DNA of 64,000 nt. Origin: Squalus acanthias. Taxonomy: Eukaryota. The stretch spans positions 17,918,001-17,982,000 of the forward strand of contig CM059440.1 in assembly GCA_030390025.1 (NCBI GenBank), in the 5' to 3' direction. The notes below the pieces were generated by a model. The model worked only from the letters and a program-made list of their open reading frames with translations, was not told the DNA's origin and did not search any database. Numbering within the stretch: the stretch's first letter is position 1; the number at the start of each line of letters is the position of its first letter. The position numbers and the translations under genes are program-made. Shown in pieces: positions 16,346 to 34,541 of the stretch.

Positions 16346-17630
16346 AACATAGAACATAGAACAGTACAGCACAGTACAGGCCCTTCGGCCCTCGATGTTG
16401 TGCCGAGCATTGTCCGAGACCAAGATCAAGCTATCACACTCCCTATCACTCTGGTGTGCTCCATGTGCTTATCCAATAACCGCTTGAAAGTTCCTAAAGT
16501 GTCCGACTCCACTATCACAGCAGGCAGTCCATTCCACACCCCAACCACTCTCTGAGTAAAGAATCTACCTCGGACATCCCTTCTATATCTCCCCCCATGC
16601 ACCTTATAGTTATGCCCCCTTGTAACAGCTGCCTCTACCCGAGGAAATAGTCTCTGAACATCCACTCTATCTATCCCCCTCATCATCTTATAAACCTCTA
16701 TTAAGTCGCCTCTCATCCTCCTCCGCTCTAAAGAGAAAAGCCCCAACTCCCTCAATCTTTCCTCATAAGACCTCCCCCCCAAACCAGGCAGCATCCTGGT
16801 AAATCTCCTTTGCACTCTTTCCAATGCTTCCACGTCCTTCCTATAGTGAGGTGACCAGAACTGCACACAATATTCCAAATGTGGTCTCACCAAGGTCCTG
16901 TACAGTTGCAGCATAACCTCACGGTTCTTAAACTCAAACCCTCTGTTAATAAACGCCAACACACCATAGGCCTTCTTTACTGCTCTATCCACTTGAGTGG
17001 CAACCTTCAGAGATCTGTGGATATGAACCCCCAGATCCCTCTGCTCCTCCACGTTCCTCAGAACCCTGCCGTTGACCCTGTAATCCTTATTCAAATTTGC
17101 CCTACCAAAATGAATCACCTCGCACTTATCAGGGTTAAATTCCATCTGCCATTTTTCGGCCCAGCTCTGCATCCTATCAATGTCTCTTTGCAGCCTACAA
17201 CTGCCCTCCACCTCATCCACTACTCCACCAATCTTGGCGTCATCAGCAAATTTACTGATCCACCCTTCAGTCCCCTCCTCCAAGTCATTGATAAAAATCA
17301 CAAACAGCAGAGGACCCAGCACCGACCCCTGTGGCACACCGCTGGTAACTGGTCTCCAGTCCGAAAATGTTCCATCCACCACCACCCTCTGCCTTCTATG
17401 AGATAGCCAGTTACTTATCCAATCGGCCAAATTTCCCTCTATCCCACAACTCCTTACTTTCTTCATGAGACGACCATGGGGAACCTTATCAAACGCCTTA
17501 CTAAAATCCATGTATACGACATCAACTGCTCTACCTTCATCTACACACTTAGTTACCTCCTCAAAGAATTCAATCAAATTTGTTAGGCAAGACTTACCCT
17601 TCACGAATCCGTGTTGACTATCCCTGATTT
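16346..17630 (-). mobile_element. Young 5'-truncated CR1 LINE (~1.3 kb)
   Basis: Uninterrupted ORF2 segment plus 3'UTR ending in a (ttctatg)n tail (aacatagaacatagaac on +). Confidence 0.96.
16426..17630 (-). CDS. CR1 ORF2 reverse transcriptase domain and C-terminus (partial, no native start)
   Basis: SQHGF.KGKSCLTNL, VYMDFSKAFDKVPH, SGVPQGSVLGPLLF, FADD, RPHLEYCVQFWSP, ERRRMRGDLIEVYK; stop-free for ~400 codons. Confidence 0.93.
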
Positions 17631-17639
17631 TTAACAAGG

Positions 17640-18126
17640 TAAGTGGTTAATTAATTACAATTTAAAAATCTTTTCAACAGGTTTATCTTTTTTAGATACT
17701 TTAAAGAAAGGTAAGTTTATTTTTAGCACCGTTACAAATAATTAATTTTTTCAAAAATTTACATTTTTGTTTAAAGTAGTTAATTTATTTAACATATTTA
17801 TTTTTAAAAAGTGATTTTTGAAAAAAATTTATTTGAAGTTTAAGTGTAGTTTTGGGGCCGATCTCTATTCATAGATTTGACAGGTCTTCCTGTCAAATCT
17901 ATGAATGAAAATGCCCTGCTAGGATTGGCTCTCCATGGCTCACGTGATCCCAGGGGACACTTCGAACTAACTGCGCCCCTGGGATACACAAGCACTGCGC
18001 ACCGGCAGCTGTAGGAGGCCCAGGACCCGAAGTCCTCGTGGGCCCAAAGCACAACTGCAGGCGCGGTAGGCAAGTACGCGTGCGATGTTTGCACCCGCAG
18101 GAAGCCTGAAAGCTGAATTTCTGGCC
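17640..18126. mobile_element. Right half of a putative non-autonomous DNA transposon
   Basis: AT-rich then GC/CpG-rich segment ending aatttctggcc, similar to the terminus aatttctaggcc at ~56000-56011; contains a perfect 18-bp hairpin at 17867-17906. Confidence 0.45.
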
Positions 18127-22351: not shown

Positions 22352-22532
22352 AAAACAACAACAGAAAACGCTGGAAAAACTCAGCAGGCCAGGCAACATC
22401 CGTGGAGAGAGAAGGGTCTTCGAACTGAAACGTTAACTCTGTTTCTCTCTCCACGGATGTTGCCTGGCCTGCTGAGTTTTTCCAGCGTTTTCTGTTGTTG
22501 TTTCAATTTTCCAGCATCCGCCGTATTTTGCT
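22352..22532 (+). mobile_element. Short Penelope-type fold-back element with 11-bp TSD
   Basis: Perfect 61-bp inverted arms 22353-22413/22443-22503; TSD ATCACATACTC at 22341-22351 and 22533-22543; same family as 33028-33688. Confidence 0.85.
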
Positions 22533-25214: not shown

Positions 25215-26645
25215 TCTTATTTGTTCTGGGGATGTGGGCAACACTAGCAAGGGTGCATTTAATGCTAATTGCCCTCCAGAGAGCATTTAAAAGTCAACCA
25301 CGTAATGTGGGACTGGAGTCACGTGTAGTCAAACAGGGTAGGAGTGGCAGGTCCACTTCTCTGAAGGACATTCGTGAACCCGTTGGTTTTTATTACACAA
25401 TCTAGCAGTTTTCATGGTCATTTTTTCTCGTGCCAGTCCACAAATTGCCAGATTTATTTAATTCAGTCTTACAACTCTTATCAATCTATATTAACGATTT
25501 GGAGGAGGGGACCGAGTGTAACATATCAAAGTTTGCAGATGATACAAAGATGGGAGGGAAAGTAGAAAGTGAGAAGGACATAAAAAACCTACAAGGGGAT
25601 ATAGACAGGCTGGGTGAGTGGGCGGAGATTTGGCAGATGCAATACAATATTGGAAAATGTGAGGTTATGCACTTTGGCAGGAAAAATCAGAGAGCAAGTT
25701 ATTATCTTAATGGCGAGAAACTGGAAAGTACTGCAGTACAAAGGGATCTGGGGGTCCTCGTGCAAGAAAATCAAAAAGTTAGTGTGCAGGTGCAGCAGGT
25801 GATCAAGAAGGCCAACGGAATGTTGGCTTTTATTGCTAGGGGGATAGATTATAAAAACAGGGAGGTATTGCTGCAGTTATATAAAGGTATTGGTGAGACC
25901 GCACCTGGAATACTGCATACAGTTTTGGTGTCCATACTTAAGAAAAGACATACTTGCTCTCGAGGCAGTACAAAGAAGGTTCACTCGGTTAACCCCGGGG
26001 ATGAGGGGGTGGACATATGAGGAGAGGTTGAGTAGATTGGGACTCTACTCATTGGAGTTCAGAAGAATGAGAGGCGATCTTATTGAAACATATAAGATTG
26101 TGAAGGGGCTTGATCGGGTGGATGCGGTAAGGATGTTCCCAAGGATGGGTGAAACTAGAACTAGGGGGCATAATCTTAGAATAAGGGGCTGCTCTTTCAA
26201 AACTGAGATGAGGAGAAACTTCTTCACTCAGAGGGTAGTAGGTCTGTGGAATTTGCTGCCCCAGGAAGCTGTGGAAGCTACATCATTAAATAAATTTAAA
26301 ACAGAAATAGACAGTTTCCTAGAAGTAAAGGAAATTAGGGGTTACGGGGAGCGGGCAGGAAATTGGACATGAGGCTGAGTTCGGATCGGTCAAGGCCCTG
26401 TGGGTGGCGGAGCGGGCCCAGGGGCTGAGTGGCCGGGTCCTGCTCCTACTTCTTGTGTTCTTTAGATTTGAGGTTAGGATCAGATCAGCCATGATCTTAT
26501 TGAATGGCGGAGCAGGCTCGAGGTGCCGATTGGCCTACCCCTGCTCCTATTTCTTATGCTCTTATGTTCACTTGCAATGGTGGAGTTTGAACGCACAGCC
26601 TCTGCGTTGCTAATCCAGAACCATAACCACGACACTGCCATACTA
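25215..26645 (-). mobile_element. tRNA SINE family C split by a CR1 insertion (25482-26569)
   Basis: 25215-25475 matches family C body/tail (gggatgtgggc...aaggacattcgtgaacc); 26570-26645 is its head (ggagtttgaac...ccataaccac). Confidence 0.7.
25482..26569 (+). mobile_element. CR1 LINE 3' ~1.1 kb with one frameshift and a double 3'UTR
   Basis: IYINDL..G.ECNISKFADDTK...; frameshift near 25885; then VRPHLEYCIQFWCP...RRMRGDLIETYKI...LWNLLP. Confidence 0.95.
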
Positions 26646-27231: not shown

Positions 27232-28665
27232 GGAAGTATGGAGGTAACAAAAGCAAGGATGAGGGTTTCAGCAGCAGATGAGCTGAGGCAAGGGCGGAGA
27301 CAGGCGATGTTAGAGGTGGAAATAGGCGGTCTTAGTTATGCTGCGGATATGTGCTCGGTAGCTCATTTCAGGGTCAAATATGACACCAAGGTTGCAAACA
27401 GTGTGGTTCAGCCTCAGGCAGATGTTAGGGAGAGGAATGGAGTCAGTGGCTAGGGGACGGAGTTTGTGGCGGGGACCGAAAACATTGGCTTCGGTCTTCC
27501 CAATATTTAATTGGAGAAAATTTCTGCTCATCCAGAACTGGATGTCGGATAAGCAGTCTGACAATTTAGAGACCGTGGAGGGGTCGAGAGAAGTGGTAGT
27601 GAGGTAGAGCTGGGTGTCGTCAGTGTACATGTGGAAACTGACGCTGTGTTTTCGGATGATGTTGCCAAGGGGCAACATGTAGATGAGAAATAGGAGGGGG
27701 GCCAAGGATAGATCCTTGGGGGACACCAGAGGTAACGATGCGGGAGCGGGAAGAGAAGCCGTTGCAGGTGATTCTCTGGCTATGATTAGATAGATAAGAA
27801 TGGAACCAGGTGAGTGCAGTTCCACCAAGCTGGACGACAGTGGAGAGGCGTTGGAGAAGGATGGAGTGGTCAAACGTGTCAAAGGCCGCAGACAAGTCAA
27901 GAAGGACGAGGAGGGATAGTTTACCTTTGTCACAGTCACAAAGGATGCCATTTGTGACTTTGATGAGAGCAGTTTCAGAACTATGGCAAGGGCGGAAACC
28001 TGATTGGAGGGATTCAAACATGGAATTGCGGGAAAGATGGGCACGGGTTTGGGAGGCGACAACACGTTCAAGGACTTGAGAGGAAAGGGAGGTTGGAGAT
28101 GGGGCAGTAGTTGGCAAGGACGGAGGGGTCAAGGGGTTTTTTTTTTGAGGAAAGGGGTGACGACGGCAGATTTGAGGGAGAGGGGGACAGTACCTGAGGA
28201 GAGAGAACCATTAACAATGTCAGCTAACATGGGAGCCAGAAAAGGAAGTTGGGTGGTCAGCAGTTTCGTGGGAATAGGGCCGAGGGAGCAGGAAGTGAGT
28301 CTCACGGACAAGATGAGCGTGGAGAGGTCATGAGGAGAGATCGGAGAGAAACTGGAGAAAGATGAGAGTTCAGGGCTAGGGCAGGGGGGAACCTTAGAGG
28401 AAGTTTGGCCCGGTGGGCTAGGGGAAGGAAGGGAAGTGGCAAAGACAGCTGAACGGATGGTCTCAATCTTAGAGACAAAGAAGTCCATGAGCTCCTCACA
28501 CCTGTTGTCGGAAATGAGGGTGGAGGAGACAGGGGAGAGGGGTTAAAGAAGATGGTTAGCAGTGGAGAATAGAAGCCGGGATTTATCTCTGCATTCCAGA
28601 ATGATTCTGGAATTGTGAGCAATTTTGGCAGACGAGAGCAGGACCCGATAATGCTTTGTGGTCCA
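27232..28665 (-). pseudogene. L2-clade LINE ORF2 RT fragment (frameshifted)
   Basis: QSGFRP.HS.ETAL.KV, LLVLLDLSAAFDT.DH.ILL.RL, SGVPQGSILGP, HMYTDDTQLY, NFLQLN..KTE spread over ORFs 27310-28071, 27620-28132, 28129-28488; typical L2 RT motifs. Confidence 0.93.
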
Positions 28666-30585: not shown

Positions 30586-32214
30586 ATTTTTTTCTTTTTA
30601 AAAAGGCCTATCAGATCTTTTAATTTTTGTTGCTCAACCACCCTCAATTGCCCAGTGCAGCGCACTTGTTAAATCATTAAAGGTTTCAGCTTTCAAGCTC
30701 CCAAAATTATTTTATTCCAAAATCACATTATACCATGAATACCACTCAAAACATCTGCTCCTAGGTGGCCAAGGAGAGGATGTTCAAGCCAGTAACTCTC
30801 CTCACCAAAACAAAAAGCCATATACAAGGGCCCTAACACCCAGTGCTGCAGTATGCTGTTATACTAATACCTTAGACATTTCAATCAATACTTCCTTCCA
30901 AATCTTTGTCACAGACACTTTGCTGCTCCTCCTTCTAAACTCTAATCCGTCTCTGGTTGCTTACACTGGCACATTGGGCCAATGGTCTGTCTTTTGATTT
31001 TTCCACTGTCTGGGCAAGATTTCAATTTCTCTGAGACCTGAACAAAAACGGCTTGCTGAAAAGGAGCGGATTAAAAAAAAGAAACGAAAGCAGCTTCCGA
31101 TGTGTTTGTGCTTAGCCCACCTAATTACCAGGAGATATGTCACATTTGTGCTGGCTGCCCGGTTTAAAAAAATATAATAAACGACACACAGGCAGGATTC
31201 AATTCCACCAAGGGAGCTTCGTGGCTTTGTAATTGTTCACTGTTTATCTCGCAGAAAGAGAAGACAGACCAGGGGAAAAACAGGATGAGATGCAAGAAGG
31301 AGACATTTAATACTTTAGCTGCCCCGTGATGGACGCAACTTGCAGCTTTTAGCTGTTCCATGTTTTTTTTGAGTAAAGCAGACACATCAGGTATGTGGCT
31401 TGCCATTAAGAACTTCACACTTCCAGAAACTGTCCGAGGCTGACAGTGTGGACACTGCCAAAGAAACTGTTACGGCCAATTATAAATTGACTCGACCTGA
31501 CCTCACCCTTAACATGGTGTTGCACTGAACCGCTTTGCATTCACTCCTATTGTGTGAAATACTTCATCCATGTACAGCACTTAAAATAGAAAATTGTGAT
31601 CCTGGTGTAAAACATCACCCGATTATCTATTCTTGATGCTCAGCACTAATCAATGCACTGCCAAATGTTACTAAGACACAGCAGCTTTAAAAAATCTCAT
31701 CCCTCTTGTGTAAAATGTATTTTCTAAGAGATTTCTGGTTCTTGTTCTGGTTGTACTGCTCAGTGACTGCTGTGGGACAACGGTTTCCAAATTTCCTATT
31801 TTTATCCACAGGTTTTAGAAATGTAGGTCCAAGCACAATTTCTGGCATAAACATTTATAGGAATCTGACTGTGCTGCAGAATGCCCTGGAAACAATTATT
31901 GTCCATTGAGGCAGATGTTTCTTCATTTTTAGGCCACTATTTGCCTATAGTTCACACGTTCAAGGTCCTCTGAACCTTCTTTTCTAGTTTCTCAAACTCC
32001 AAATACACTGTCCTACAGGTTACTCCTCCTCCCTGCACCTTTAATGTGTTGAAATCCAGACTTGTTGCACCATTTCCACCTGATCCCCAACTGTGAGGTG
32101 CCTTGAAATGTTCCATGTTAAAGGCGCTAGCCCTTACCTCCCTCAGACAAGCTTTCCTCTGACAATCTACAAGACCCAACTTAGCACCAACCAATCACTA
32201 CAATGGATTTTTAT

Positions 32215-32680
32215 TATTTGTTCTCATAATGACGCTGGCAAGGCTGTATTTATTGCCCCTCTATTTTCTTCGAGAAGGTTGTGGACTGTGGATGCTCAGT
32301 CATTGAGTATATTTAAGACGGAGATCAATAGATTTTTGGACACTAAGGGAATCAAGGGATATGGGGATAGGACGGGAAAGTGTTGCGATAGAAGATCAGC
32401 CATGATCGTAGTGAAACGGCAAAGCAGGCTCGAGGGGCCGTATGGCCTACTCCGGCTCCTATTTCTTGTATTCTTCTGTAATTTGGTGGTGGGCCTTCTT
32501 CTTGAACCACAGCAGGTTGTGTGGTGATGGTGCTCCTATGATGACGTTAGGTTGGAAATTTCAAGATTTTGACCCAAGGATCAGCGATATATGTCCCAGT
32601 CAGGATGTGATTTGGAGGGGAACGTGGCAGTGATAGTGTCCCCATGATCTTGCTGCTCTTGCTCTTCTTGATGGGAGGTG
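32215..32680 (-). mobile_element. LINE-B 3' remnant interrupted by a + strand CR1 3' end (~32270-32478)
   Basis: gacgctggcaaggctgtatttattgccc | ggatgctcagtcattgagtatatttaagac...ctcctatttcttg | gggccttcttcttgaaccacagcag. Confidence 0.7.
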
Positions 32681-33083
32681 CTGCTGATTTACTTCGTCTT
32701 CTCTCCTGCTTTTTTAAAGCTTGGTAATGTTCTGCTCTATAGGGCTTGGCCCTTCACCTAGACTTTAAAAAAAACTGTAGCCAGGGTGTTATGTTTAGTC
32801 GAATAATAAGGATCAATGATGCCTCCACTCCGACCAGGTTTACTGCAAATGGTTCATAATAAATTTATTTCAGTAGCCAACTACAAATATGAATAGAATT
32901 GGTATTATGGGGGCTTTTTTACCTTTCTTTTCTTCTGTAAACAGTCAGCCCAAGCCTTACATATGCTGAACCTTATTTCACTTAGGTCTCTTAGAGGTTA
33001 CAGCCAGGAGGAGAGGCATTCATTCTTGAACAGAAAATGCTGGAAATACTCAGCAGGTCAGGCAGCATCTGTGGAGAGAGAAA

Positions 33084-33125
33084 CAGAGTTAACGTTTCAG
33101 GTCGATGACCCTTCGTCAGAACTGG
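33084..33125 (-). ncRNA. Minimal type-I hammerhead ribozyme motif (intact core)
   Basis: Minus strand reads ccagtt-CTGACGA-a-gggtc-atc-gacct-GAAA-cgtt-aactctg: CUGANGA and GAAA cores, helix II, palindromic ACGU helix III, GUU triplet, agtt/aact helix I. Confidence 0.75.
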
Positions 33126-33552
33126 AAAAAGCTGGAGATGGAGCAGGTTTTAAGCAAGTGTAGGGGCAGGAAAAGGGGGGAGGAGGAAAGAACAAAAGGG
33201 AAGGTGTCTGTGATAGGATGGAAGGCAGGAGAGATTAAGAGACATTAAGAGATGGTGCAAGGCAAAAGGAGATGGTAATGGGACAAGTTAAGAAACAAAA
33301 GATGGCTCTAGATGAAGTGTAAATGGCACTGGTGTAAGTGTCATTTACACTTCATCTAGAGCCATCTTTTGTTTCTTAACTTGTCCCATTACCATTTCCT
33401 TTTGCCTTGCACCATCTCTTAATCTTTCTTAATGTCACTTAATCTCTCCTGCTTTCCATCCTATCACAGACCTTCCCTTTTGTTCTTTCCTCCCCTCCCC
33501 CCTTTTCCTGCCCCTACACTTGCTTAAAAACCTGTTCCATCTCCAGCTTTTT

Positions 33553-33594
33553 CCAGTTCTGGCGAAGGGTCATCGACCTGAAACGTTAACTCTG
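33553..33594 (+). ncRNA. Hammerhead motif copy with mutated core (CUGGCGA)
   Basis: ccagtt-CTGGCGA-agggtcatcgacct-GAAA-cgttaactctg; single A>G change in the invariant CUGA. Confidence 0.6.
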
Positions 33595-33789
33595 TTTCTC
33601 TCTCCACAGATGCTGTCTGACCTGCTGAGTATTTCCAGCATTTTCTGTTTTTATTTCAGATTTCCAGCATCTGCAGTATTTTGCTTTTGCATTCATTCTT
33701 TAAGTCTGGGCTGAACTCAAACCAAGGTTCTGTGGGTGAAAGGACACTGGACTAACCAATTACAATCAATGGTCCCTTATCACAGGTCG

Positions 33790-34541
33790 AGTGAATGGAC
33801 AAGAAGGTAGCAGATAGCTTATAATGAGGGGAAATGTGAAATTGTCCACTTTGGTAGGAAGAACAGAAAAGCAGAATATTTTTTACAAAATGAGAGACTT
33901 GTAAATGTTGGGATTCAGAGGGATTTGGGTGTCCTTGTACACAAATCCCTCAGAAGGTTAACATGCAGGTACAGCAAGCAATTGGGAAGGCATATAGTAT
34001 GTTAGCTTCTATTGGAGTGTAAGAGTAAGGTAGTCTTGCTGCAATTATATAGGGCTTTGGCAAGACCAGACCTGGAGTACGAGTACAGTTTTGGTCTCCT
34101 TACCTAAGGAAGGATATACTTGCCTTGGAGGTGGTGCAACGAAGGTTCACTAGATTGATTCCTGGGATGAGAAGGTTGTCCTATGAGAAGAGATTGTGTA
34201 GAATAAGCCTATATTCTCTGGAGTTGAGAAGAATGAGAAGTGATCTCACTGAAACATATAAAATTCTTAGAGGGCTTGATAGGGTCGATGCTGGGAGGCC
34301 GTTTCCCCTGGCTGGAGAGTCTAGAACTAGGGGTCATTGTCTTAGGATAAGGCACCAGCCATTTAGGACTGAGGTGAGGAGAAATTTCTTCACTCAGAGG
34401 GTTGTGAATCTTTTGACACCAAGGGAATCAAGGGATATGGGGACATGGCGGGGAAGTGGAGTTGAGGTAGAAGATCAGCCATGATCTTATTGAATGGTCG
34501 AAGGACCGAATGGCCTACTGCTCCTATTTCTTCTGTTCTTA
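33790..34541 (+). mobile_element. CR1 LINE 3' fragment
   Basis: ORF 34125-34484 VQRRFTRLIPGMRRLSYE.RL...RRMRSDL.ETYKIL; upstream aaatgtgaaattgtccactttgg; tail ctcctatttcttctgttctt. Confidence 0.92.

What the first reader, a model, noticed from the sequence alone, without database searches (positions are those of the whole stretch)
33016..33700. Penelope-derived fold-back element carrying a hammerhead ribozyme motif on each strand (retrozyme-like)
Seen: a 661-bp insert bounded by a 12-bp TSD (GCATTCATTCTT) that folds into a ~300-bp hairpin with a 6-nt loop plus a ~39-nt unpaired 3' tail, with no protein homology. Established: Penelope-like elements often insert as inverted partial pseudo-LTRs with a short 3' tail, and they carry minimal hammerhead ribozymes. 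Inference: this is a non-autonomous PLE derivative. Whichever strand is transcribed yields an HHR motif embedded in long dsRNA, so it could be a mobile ribozyme RNA and a source of dsRNA/endo-siRNA in host transcripts.
Basis: partly seen in the sequence, partly recalled or inferred. Interest (0 to 1): 0.7.

Follow-up and report, generated by a model that had tools for sequence, protein, structure and literature searches.

The report
One-off mirror-image Penelope retrotransposon insertion
This 661-base hairpin is a one-off insertion of two back-to-back end pieces of a very common Penelope-type jumping gene, not a self-copying ribozyme element, and its sister copies suggest that such mirror images are likely made by copying one uncut, probably capped RNA from both sides of the DNA break.

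Summary
The insert is real: 661 nt, 12-bp TSD, arms 293/301 identical, 39-nt tail. Only the minus-strand arm has an intact minimal hammerhead; the plus arm reads CUGGCGA. Both arms are the non-coding 3' end (pLTR) of an autonomous Neptune-type Penelope-like element with RT, CX4CXXC linker and GIY-YIG; 9,762 hammerhead-pattern matches lie in this genome. The fold-back junction is unique genome-wide, and 37 contiguous inverted copies fold at scattered points, so the self-propagating 'retrozyme' reading fails. The layout is published. Family-level tests favour two cDNAs primed from both target ends: one tail in 34 of 37; the tail-less arm is the longer in 16 of 34; arms share alleles (17 of 129 discordant sites, 53.7 expected). 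Copies pile up at a TATA/initiator-like start on the hammerhead's first base (618 against 135 and 138 in controls), with extra G in 62 of 100, but not at the ribozyme cut (156). This scan noted both ideas before on other shark DNA.

The parts
33016..33027 (+). left target-site duplication, 12 bp
33029..33332 (-). tail-less arm: inverted copy of the PLE 3' end, reference positions 1929-2242
33147..33155 (-). TATA-like box of the left arm, about 30 nt upstream of the inferred start; would drive transcription outward to the left (inferred)
   Evidence: position by comparison with family 5' ends
33087..33123 (-). intact minimal type I hammerhead: stem I AGUU/AACU, core CUGACGA, stem II GGGUC/GACCU, GAAAC-GUU with no helix III; predicted cut between 33091 and 33090; 33123 is the inferred transcript start (A+1)
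   Evidence: descriptor hit; coordinates
33333..33336 (.). 4-nt junction filler TGTA; GTGTAA occurs 14 nt to the left, so it may be locally templated
   Evidence: templating is inference
33337..33649 (+). tailed arm body: PLE 3' UTR/pLTR from reference position 1931, about 90 nt after the ORF stop codon
33523..33559 (+). TATA-like CTTAAAAAC (33523-33531) and initiator-like TCCAGTTC (33552-33559; A+1 = 33555) of the right arm
   Evidence: family 5'-end pile-up
33555..33591 (+). hammerhead motif with mutated core (CUGGCGA, A6G); likely inactive
33650..33688 (+). 39-nt PLE tail between the two family 3'-end sites (about 2244-2252 and 2282)
33689..33700 (+). right target-site duplication, 12 bp; its first G may also be the element's last base

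Best explanation
This is a single, dead insertion of two 5'-truncated copies of the non-coding 3' end of a high-copy, likely Neptune-clade Penelope-like retrotransposon, joined head to head, and likely made by reverse transcription primed from both ends of one staggered DNA cut. Shown: family, layout, unique junction, TSD. Inferred mechanism: the element's protein cuts both strands 12 bp apart. One DNA end primes at the distal site (tail end) and the other at the site about 39 nt upstream, probably on the same uncleaved RNA. Both cDNAs stopped within 2 nt of each other, at a broken RNA end or at the base of a predicted hairpin just upstream. They were end-joined with a 4-nt filler. The hammerheads are passengers of the pLTR and were not needed for this event.
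For: Parent element: the 30 best loci share one 3' end with 5' ends spread over about 1,500 nt. Longer copies encode RT (Pfam RVT_1, E 5.7e-5, below the curated cut-off), FPC-x4-C-x2-C in 27 frames and GIY-YIG (E 6.4e-5, above the cut-off). About 10 of 25 loci with the ORF's N-terminal part have a direct pLTR+tail upstream (my reading), so the tail end is internal to the transcript. One-off: 1 match to the junction pattern against 9,762 and 13,753 matches to family patterns. Two primers: 3' ends are bimodal, near 2244-2252 and at 2282. 34 of 37 contiguous inverted copies carry the tail on exactly one arm; the tail-less arm reaches further 5' by more than 5 nt in 16, the tailed arm in 8, and they are equal in 10. 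L033, L035 and L145 have tail-less arms 700-1,160 nt longer with TSDs intact, and L193 and L250 have a tail-only arm beside a non-overlapping arm; a fold-back of one tailed cDNA cannot give these. Junctions show 1-9 nt overlaps or fillers, some repeating nearby sequence (L131; L204). Same source: arms differ at 17 of 129 family-polymorphic non-CpG sites against 53.7 expected, this insert at 1 of 14 against 5.8. Uncut, capped sense template: 618 copies start exactly at A+1 against 135 (6 nt upstream), 138 (6 nt downstream) and 156 at the predicted ribozyme cut. The base before A+1 is G in 62 of the 100 listed (28.6% expected, p 4e-12; control 29 of 100), and in 22 of 41 solo copies (p 7e-4). 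Fits PMC11167929 (both strands cut and extended, two internal RT starts bounding the tail, HHR cleavage not needed) and the extra cap-derived G of full-length L1 (PMC11702581, passage).
Against: This copy alone does not decide the mechanism: its arms end within 2 nt of each other, which a fold-back would also give; the case rests on sister copies. 17 of 129 discordant sites (13%) is above the roughly 4% arm divergence, so some pairs may come from two RNAs. Allele sharing could also reflect same-age subfamilies or later gene conversion, 14 of 24 shared rare alleles came from two pairs. Of 13 G in inverted entries, 6 are explained by the partner arm, and several solo G are inside the TSD. The A+1 site also reads like a 3' splice site (TTTTTCCAG); no shared upstream exon was seen, but no RNA 5'-end data were available. 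Arm ends come from BLAST and are uncertain by a few nt; L100 and L126 are doubtful pairs. Samples come mostly from contig C1 and from pattern-selected, younger copies. No empty-site allele was seen. Neptune is inferred from the linker motif and the host group, not from a tree.
Confidence: 0.7

Rival explanations
1. Same PLE origin and one-off status, but the mirror half forms by self-priming: a snap-back of one cDNA, or self-priming on an antisense RNA as proposed by Arkhipova et al. 2013.
For: This insert and 9 others of 34 have arms ending within 5 nt of each other. Arms share alleles. PMC3846280 (Discussion, read) argues for self-priming on an antisense template.
Against: The tail-less arm is the longer one in 16 of 34; L193 and L250 have non-overlapping arms; junctions carry fillers. 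In L222 both arms stop at the sense-strand A+1 and each has a G next to it.
Confidence: 0.15
2. Twin priming, but often on two different RNA molecules held by a protein dimer.
For: 17 of 129 polymorphic sites are discordant; L033 differs at 4 of 29. A dimer is predicted for PAc (PMC11167929).
Against: Discordance is a third of the random expectation. This insert has 1 of 14. Equal stops away from A+1 (1929/1931 here; 2035/2048 in L144) suit one truncated template.
Confidence: 0.1
3. One reading: a non-autonomous fold-back family or retrozyme that spreads as a unit through a self-cleaving or circular RNA.
For: A TSD flanks the whole unit and one hammerhead is intact. A preprint links animal retrozymes to PLE pLTRs (10.64898/2026.07.22.740005).
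Against: The junction is unique. There are no tandem head-to-tail units. The plus core is mutated. The hammerhead is fully paired in read-through RNA. Copies are not enriched at the cut site.
Confidence: 0.03
4. A DNA-transposon MITE with long terminal inverted repeats, or an assembly artefact.
For: Long inverted arms and a TSD.
Against: The arms are the 3' end of an RT-encoding element with variable 5' truncation. They differ by 8 substitutions and several indels, and the tail is on one side only.
Confidence: 0.02

Closest known systems
EN+ PLE insertions with inverted pLTR, one-sided tail and TSD (Pen2a_Av and Pen2_Av, PMC3846280, passages and Discussion; general scheme in Craig et al. 2021, PMC8557442, passages; D. 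virilis Penelope, PMC2377424, passages)
   Same: Head-to-head inverted 5'-truncated copy, 30-40-nt tail on one end, TSD, TATA/Inr-like motifs in the pLTR.
   Different: Here no ORF is left between the arms: both are 3' UTR only. The host group is cartilaginous fish by protein similarity, with thousands of copies.
Minimal type I hammerheads of metazoan PLEs (Cervera and De la Pena 2014, PMC4209133; parts 1-2 of 4 read)
   Same: No helix III, palindromic 15.2-16.2 junction, extra base before stem II, 4-bp helix I. That paper already reports dual min-HHRs 100-700 bp apart on opposite strands.
   Different: The 10.1-11.1 pair is G-U, not the conserved G-C; helix II is 5 bp; one copy here has an A6G core.
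Poseidon PAc of Anolis carolinensis (Frangieh et al. 2024, PMC11167929; parts 1-2 of 4 read)
   Same: Two internal RT start sites bounding the tail; both strands cut and extended; HHR cleavage dispensable.
   Different: Different clade (Zn-finger-like linker here). The first ATG lies at +173, after the tail (2 loci), whereas in PAc the ORF starts inside the HHR. The parts read do not model head-to-head copies or map a capped start.
LINE-1 twin priming and cap-derived extra G (PMC11702581, passages)
   Same: Both target ends primed, TSD of 12-18 bp kept, central junction by end joining, extra G on run-off copies.
   Different: L1 inversions have nearly non-overlapping arms. Here the arms overlap almost wholly because the two priming sites are fixed about 39 nt apart.
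Non-LTR retrozymes (bioRxiv 10.64898/2026.07.22.740005; part 1 of 5 and passages read, supplements closed)
   Same: Type I hammerhead derived from a PLE pLTR, non-coding.
   Different: Retrozymes are defined as tandem head-to-tail repeats with at least two consecutive intact HHRs. This is a single inverted pair with one intact HHR.

Membership tests
EN+ Penelope-like element (parent family) | single ORF with PLE-type RT and C-terminal GIY-YIG | tested here: met
   In sister copies, not in the insert: (RVT_1 below its cut-off; GIY-YIG above its cut-off); homologues in sharks, rays and marine invertebrates
EN+ Penelope-like element (parent family) | pLTRs from partial tandems, variable 5' truncation, fixed 3' end | tested here: met
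EN+ Penelope-like element (parent family) | 30-40-nt tail on one end of inverted insertions | tested here: met
   39 nt here; 34 of 37
Neptune clade | CX2-5CxxC linker between RT and EN (shared with Nematis) | tested here: met
   FPC-x4-C-x2-C in 27 frames; feature from PMC8557442 passages
Neptune clade | RT phylogeny groups with named Neptune elements | not tested
   No labelled reference set was held
Minimal type I hammerhead | core CUGANGA...GAAA...UH with stems I and II | tested here: met
   Minus arm only; 0 hits in 50 shuffles. The plus arm fails (A6G).
Minimal type I hammerhead | self-cleavage as a dimer or with protein help | not testable with these tools
   The HHR fold (-5.9 kcal/mol) is above the 37-mer's MFE (-9.1); no enrichment of copies at the cut site
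Non-LTR retrozyme | tandem head-to-tail units with two or more intact HHRs | tested here: not met
Non-LTR retrozyme | unit propagates as a family | tested here: not met
   Exact-pattern junction search gave 1 match; fold points scattered
Non-LTR retrozyme | circular RNA intermediate | not testable with these tools
   Only contigs were served and no run is on record as RNA
MITE / DNA transposon | TIRs at both termini shared with a transposase family | tested here: not met
   The arms belong to an RT element and the tail is outside the repeat

The most novel reading that the evidence does not exclude
The genome is a fossil record of the PLE replication cycle. The capped mRNA starts on the first base of the minimal hammerhead, so cleavage would act as a decapping switch rather than make the template. 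The protein primes one uncut RNA from both ends of its double-strand cut at two fixed sites about 39 nt apart. That one rule gives the tail, the inverted pLTR and hundreds of cap-marked 100-135-nt leader copies, and each full inverted insert such as this one plants two outward-facing promoters.
Probability: 0.5. Interest if true: 0.6.

Novelty: new member of a known kind. Interest (0 to 1): 0.36.

Why it matters
The locus itself is an ordinary dead PLE footprint. Its value is as one of thousands of natural reaction products. How PLEs make inverted pLTRs and tails, and what their hammerheads do, are open questions: PMC3846280 proposes antisense self-priming and calls for experiments, and PMC11167929 leaves the later steps unvalidated. 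The end statistics here give specific predictions (start at A+1, two priming sites, uncut template) that the existing in vitro PLE assay and CAGE could test. I did not find twin priming or cap copying stated for PLEs in my searches. The library lacks most subscription journals, and supplements were not read.

Tried and rejected
Rfam: no hit at gathering score in the window; at E up to 10 only sub-threshold matches, the best being miRNA-type hairpins caused by the fold-back, and no hammerhead. Host gene: 29 of the 30 long frames were scanned; only four RT fragments (and one weak RAP1 match, E 0.0075) were found. Short exons would be missed, so an intronic location is neither shown nor excluded. 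Expression: no RNA holder listed. Empty site: four runs' contigs laid on 32550-33085 did not cover the unique left flank, so no result. The idea that the 10-nt indel marks two templates was dropped: it lies in a short tandem repeat and recurs in other copies. The first allele test (40 pairs) mixed in non-contiguous pairs; it was redone on 31 of the 37 contiguous pairs, those with at least 45 usable sites. HHR cleavage as the source of the 5' ends: 156 against 135 and 138 in controls, and 1 of 30 loci; rejected for this family. Pattern bias as the cause of the 5'-end spike: among 122 copies not picked by the HHR pattern, 17 still start in the 2146-2150 bin against 1-9 in other 5-nt bins. A splice acceptor at CAG|TT was not preferred because no shared upstream exon appears among about 26 such copies. 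A search for a paper on cap-derived G in processed pseudogenes returned 0; another returned 2.

Full report
Observation. The insert spans 33028-33688 (661 nt) between two exact copies of GCATTCATTCTT. The arms align with 293 identities, 8 mismatches and 15 gap columns, and either strand folds as one hairpin (-578.6 and -552.3 kcal/mol) with a 39-nt 3' extension. No frame of 110 aa or more overlaps it. Rfam has no hammerhead hit. A minimal-hammerhead descriptor written from the features in PMC4209133 finds exactly one site in the window, on the minus strand at 33123, and none in 50 shuffles. The plus-arm copy reads CUGGCGA, an A6G change where 181 of 191 family copies have A. So 'a hammerhead on each strand' holds for the motif but not for an intact core.

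Parent element. The window lies in a 3.7-Gb genome. The right arm has 2,963 candidate places, of which 40 were scored. All 30 fetched loci end at the same 3' point and begin at scattered 5' points. Longer copies run upstream into an ORF with RT motifs, an FPC-x4-C-x2-C linker and GIY-YIG. The stop codon lies about 90 nt before the start of the window's arms, so both arms are pure 3' UTR/pLTR. In about 10 of 25 loci fetched with the ORF's N-terminal part, a direct pLTR plus tail stands upstream and runs on into the 5' region (my reading); the first ATG is at +173 in the two loci that the script parsed. The best protein matches are from sharks and rays. The linker marks Neptune or Nematis (PMC8557442, passages); I infer Neptune and built no tree. 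Exact patterns count 9,762 hammerheads and 13,753 downstream segments; these are lower bounds. Reference positions below count on a natural copy, locus L031.

Is the fold-back a family? No. A pattern across this junction, allowing 0-25 nt in the centre, matches once: here. Among 89 loci picked by the hammerhead pattern along contig C1, 13 are strictly contiguous head-to-head pairs at the picked site, and several more have longer or complex centres. Pooling all loci gives 37 contiguous inverted copies, this one included, with fold points from position 75 to 2244 and TSD calls of 8-18 bp in 25, one of them spurious. A second, older inverted copy lies in the window at 22353-22532. The layout is published: inverted 5'-truncated copy plus one-sided tail (PMC8557442 and PMC3846280, passages) and dual min-HHRs on opposite strands 100-700 bp apart (PMC4209133). 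Retrozymes are tandem repeats with two or more intact HHRs (preprint 10.64898/2026.07.22.740005); this insert fails that test.

How the mirror image forms. The 3' ends of 239 copies fall in two groups, near 2244-2252 and at 2282. These match the two internal RT starts that bound the tail in PAc (PMC11167929). Exactly one arm has the tail in 34 of 37 copies. Of the 34, the tail-less arm reaches further 5' by more than 5 nt in 16, the tailed arm in 8, and 10 are equal. A fold-back of one tailed cDNA cannot make the tail-less arm the longer, yet L033, L035 and L145 do so by 700-1,160 nt with TSDs intact. L193 and L250 pair a tail-only arm with a non-overlapping arm, as in L1 twin priming (PMC11702581, passages). 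Junctions show short overlaps or fillers, some copied from nearby sequence. The arms are close kin: in 31 of the 37 pairs with enough sites they disagree at 17 of 129 polymorphic non-CpG sites against 53.7 expected, and this insert at 1 of 14 against 5.8. Against this: 13% discordance exceeds the arm divergence; subfamily age and gene conversion give the same signal; and this insert, with arms ending at 1929 and 1931 at the base of a predicted -11.3 kcal/mol hairpin, fits either model on its own.

Where the RNA starts. About 26 of 91 hammerhead matches lose family sequence within a few bases upstream of the core, with no shared upstream sequence. The spike persists in copies not picked by that pattern: 17 of 122 in one 5-nt bin. 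Genome-wide, 618 copies begin exactly at the A of TCCAGTTC, against 135 six bases upstream (many of them T-run deletions), 138 six bases downstream and 156 at the predicted ribozyme cut. That A sits in an initiator-like context with a TATA-like box about 30 nt upstream (consensus motifs recalled). The base before it is G in 62 of the 100 matches listed, against 28.6% expected and 29 of 100 in the control (my hand count; p values). In 60 of those loci fetched, solo copies have G in 22 of 41 after removing 2 duplicates (p 7e-4). Several G lie outside the TSD (L213, L246, L255), and L222 has one next to each arm; 6 of 13 G in inverted entries are explained by the partner arm. An extra G marks cap copying in full-length L1 (PMC11702581). 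I infer a capped RNA whose first four bases are hammerhead stem I, copied uncut. A 3' splice site is the alternative, and no RNA data could test it.

Function at this locus. In read-through of either strand the hammerhead follows its complement; for the intact copy the predicted fold pairs 36 of its 37 bases. A read-through RNA would be long dsRNA, but I found no host gene and no expression data. Each arm keeps the TATA/initiator-like motifs facing outward, so weak outward transcription is as plausible as dsRNA; both are untested.

Earlier notes of this scan were opened only after these tests. They hold 269 findings on shark Penelope palindromes, including twin priming and capped-leader copies. 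They are unchecked AI notes, not independent support. One reports arms starting at the ribozyme cut; I see no such enrichment in this family.

Verdict. A real feature and an ordinary PLE by-product, not a mobile ribozyme. The family's end statistics give testable support for two-ended priming on an uncut, capped RNA. Papers seen: PMC4209133 and PMC11167929, parts 1-2 of 4; the retrozyme preprint, part 1 of 5 and passages; PMC3846280, passages and Discussion; PMC8557442, PMC6155905, PMC2377424 and PMC11702581, passages; no supplements, which may bear on shark retrozyme families and PLE start sites.

Noticed in passing
window 22353-22532: Second, older head-to-head insert of a related subfamily (arms at reference 2189-2249 and 2157-2278), 13-bp TSD call, 3-nt junction overlap; the arms are identical at 53 non-CpG sites although diverged from the family, which hints at gene conversion or a young copy of another subfamily.
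   Followed up: partly
several fetched loci: A second, unrelated minimal-hammerhead family (stem I TCAC/GTGA, variable stem II loop) occurs in this genome, probably from another PLE.
   Followed up: no
L207, L256, L260: Copies classed as solo carry a few bases of inverted tail end at their 5' junction, so two-ended priming may be commoner than visible palindromes suggest.
   Followed up: partly
L149 (G000:C10 near 54963900): A unit that begins with only the 39-nt tail before the 5' region, preceded by an inverted tailed arm.
   Followed up: no
L016, L081/L147, L014 and this insert: Several 5' ends fall at reference 1929-1941, at the 3' base of a predicted hairpin in the 3' UTR; a possible RT stall or RNA break site.
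   Followed up: partly
window 16426-17646, 25406-26020, 27310-28210; also 32084-32527 and 33800-34534: RT fragments (Pfam RVT_1 in four frames) and repeated LINE-like 3' ends; CR1-type by my recall. No host exon was recognised in the window.
   Followed up: no
L010-L013 (C16 near 39.65 Mb), L077-L079, L033 1-2925: PLE copies carried in tandem segmental duplications of about 6 kb and less, and a 33-bp-period minisatellite array of about 2.9 kb.
   Followed up: no
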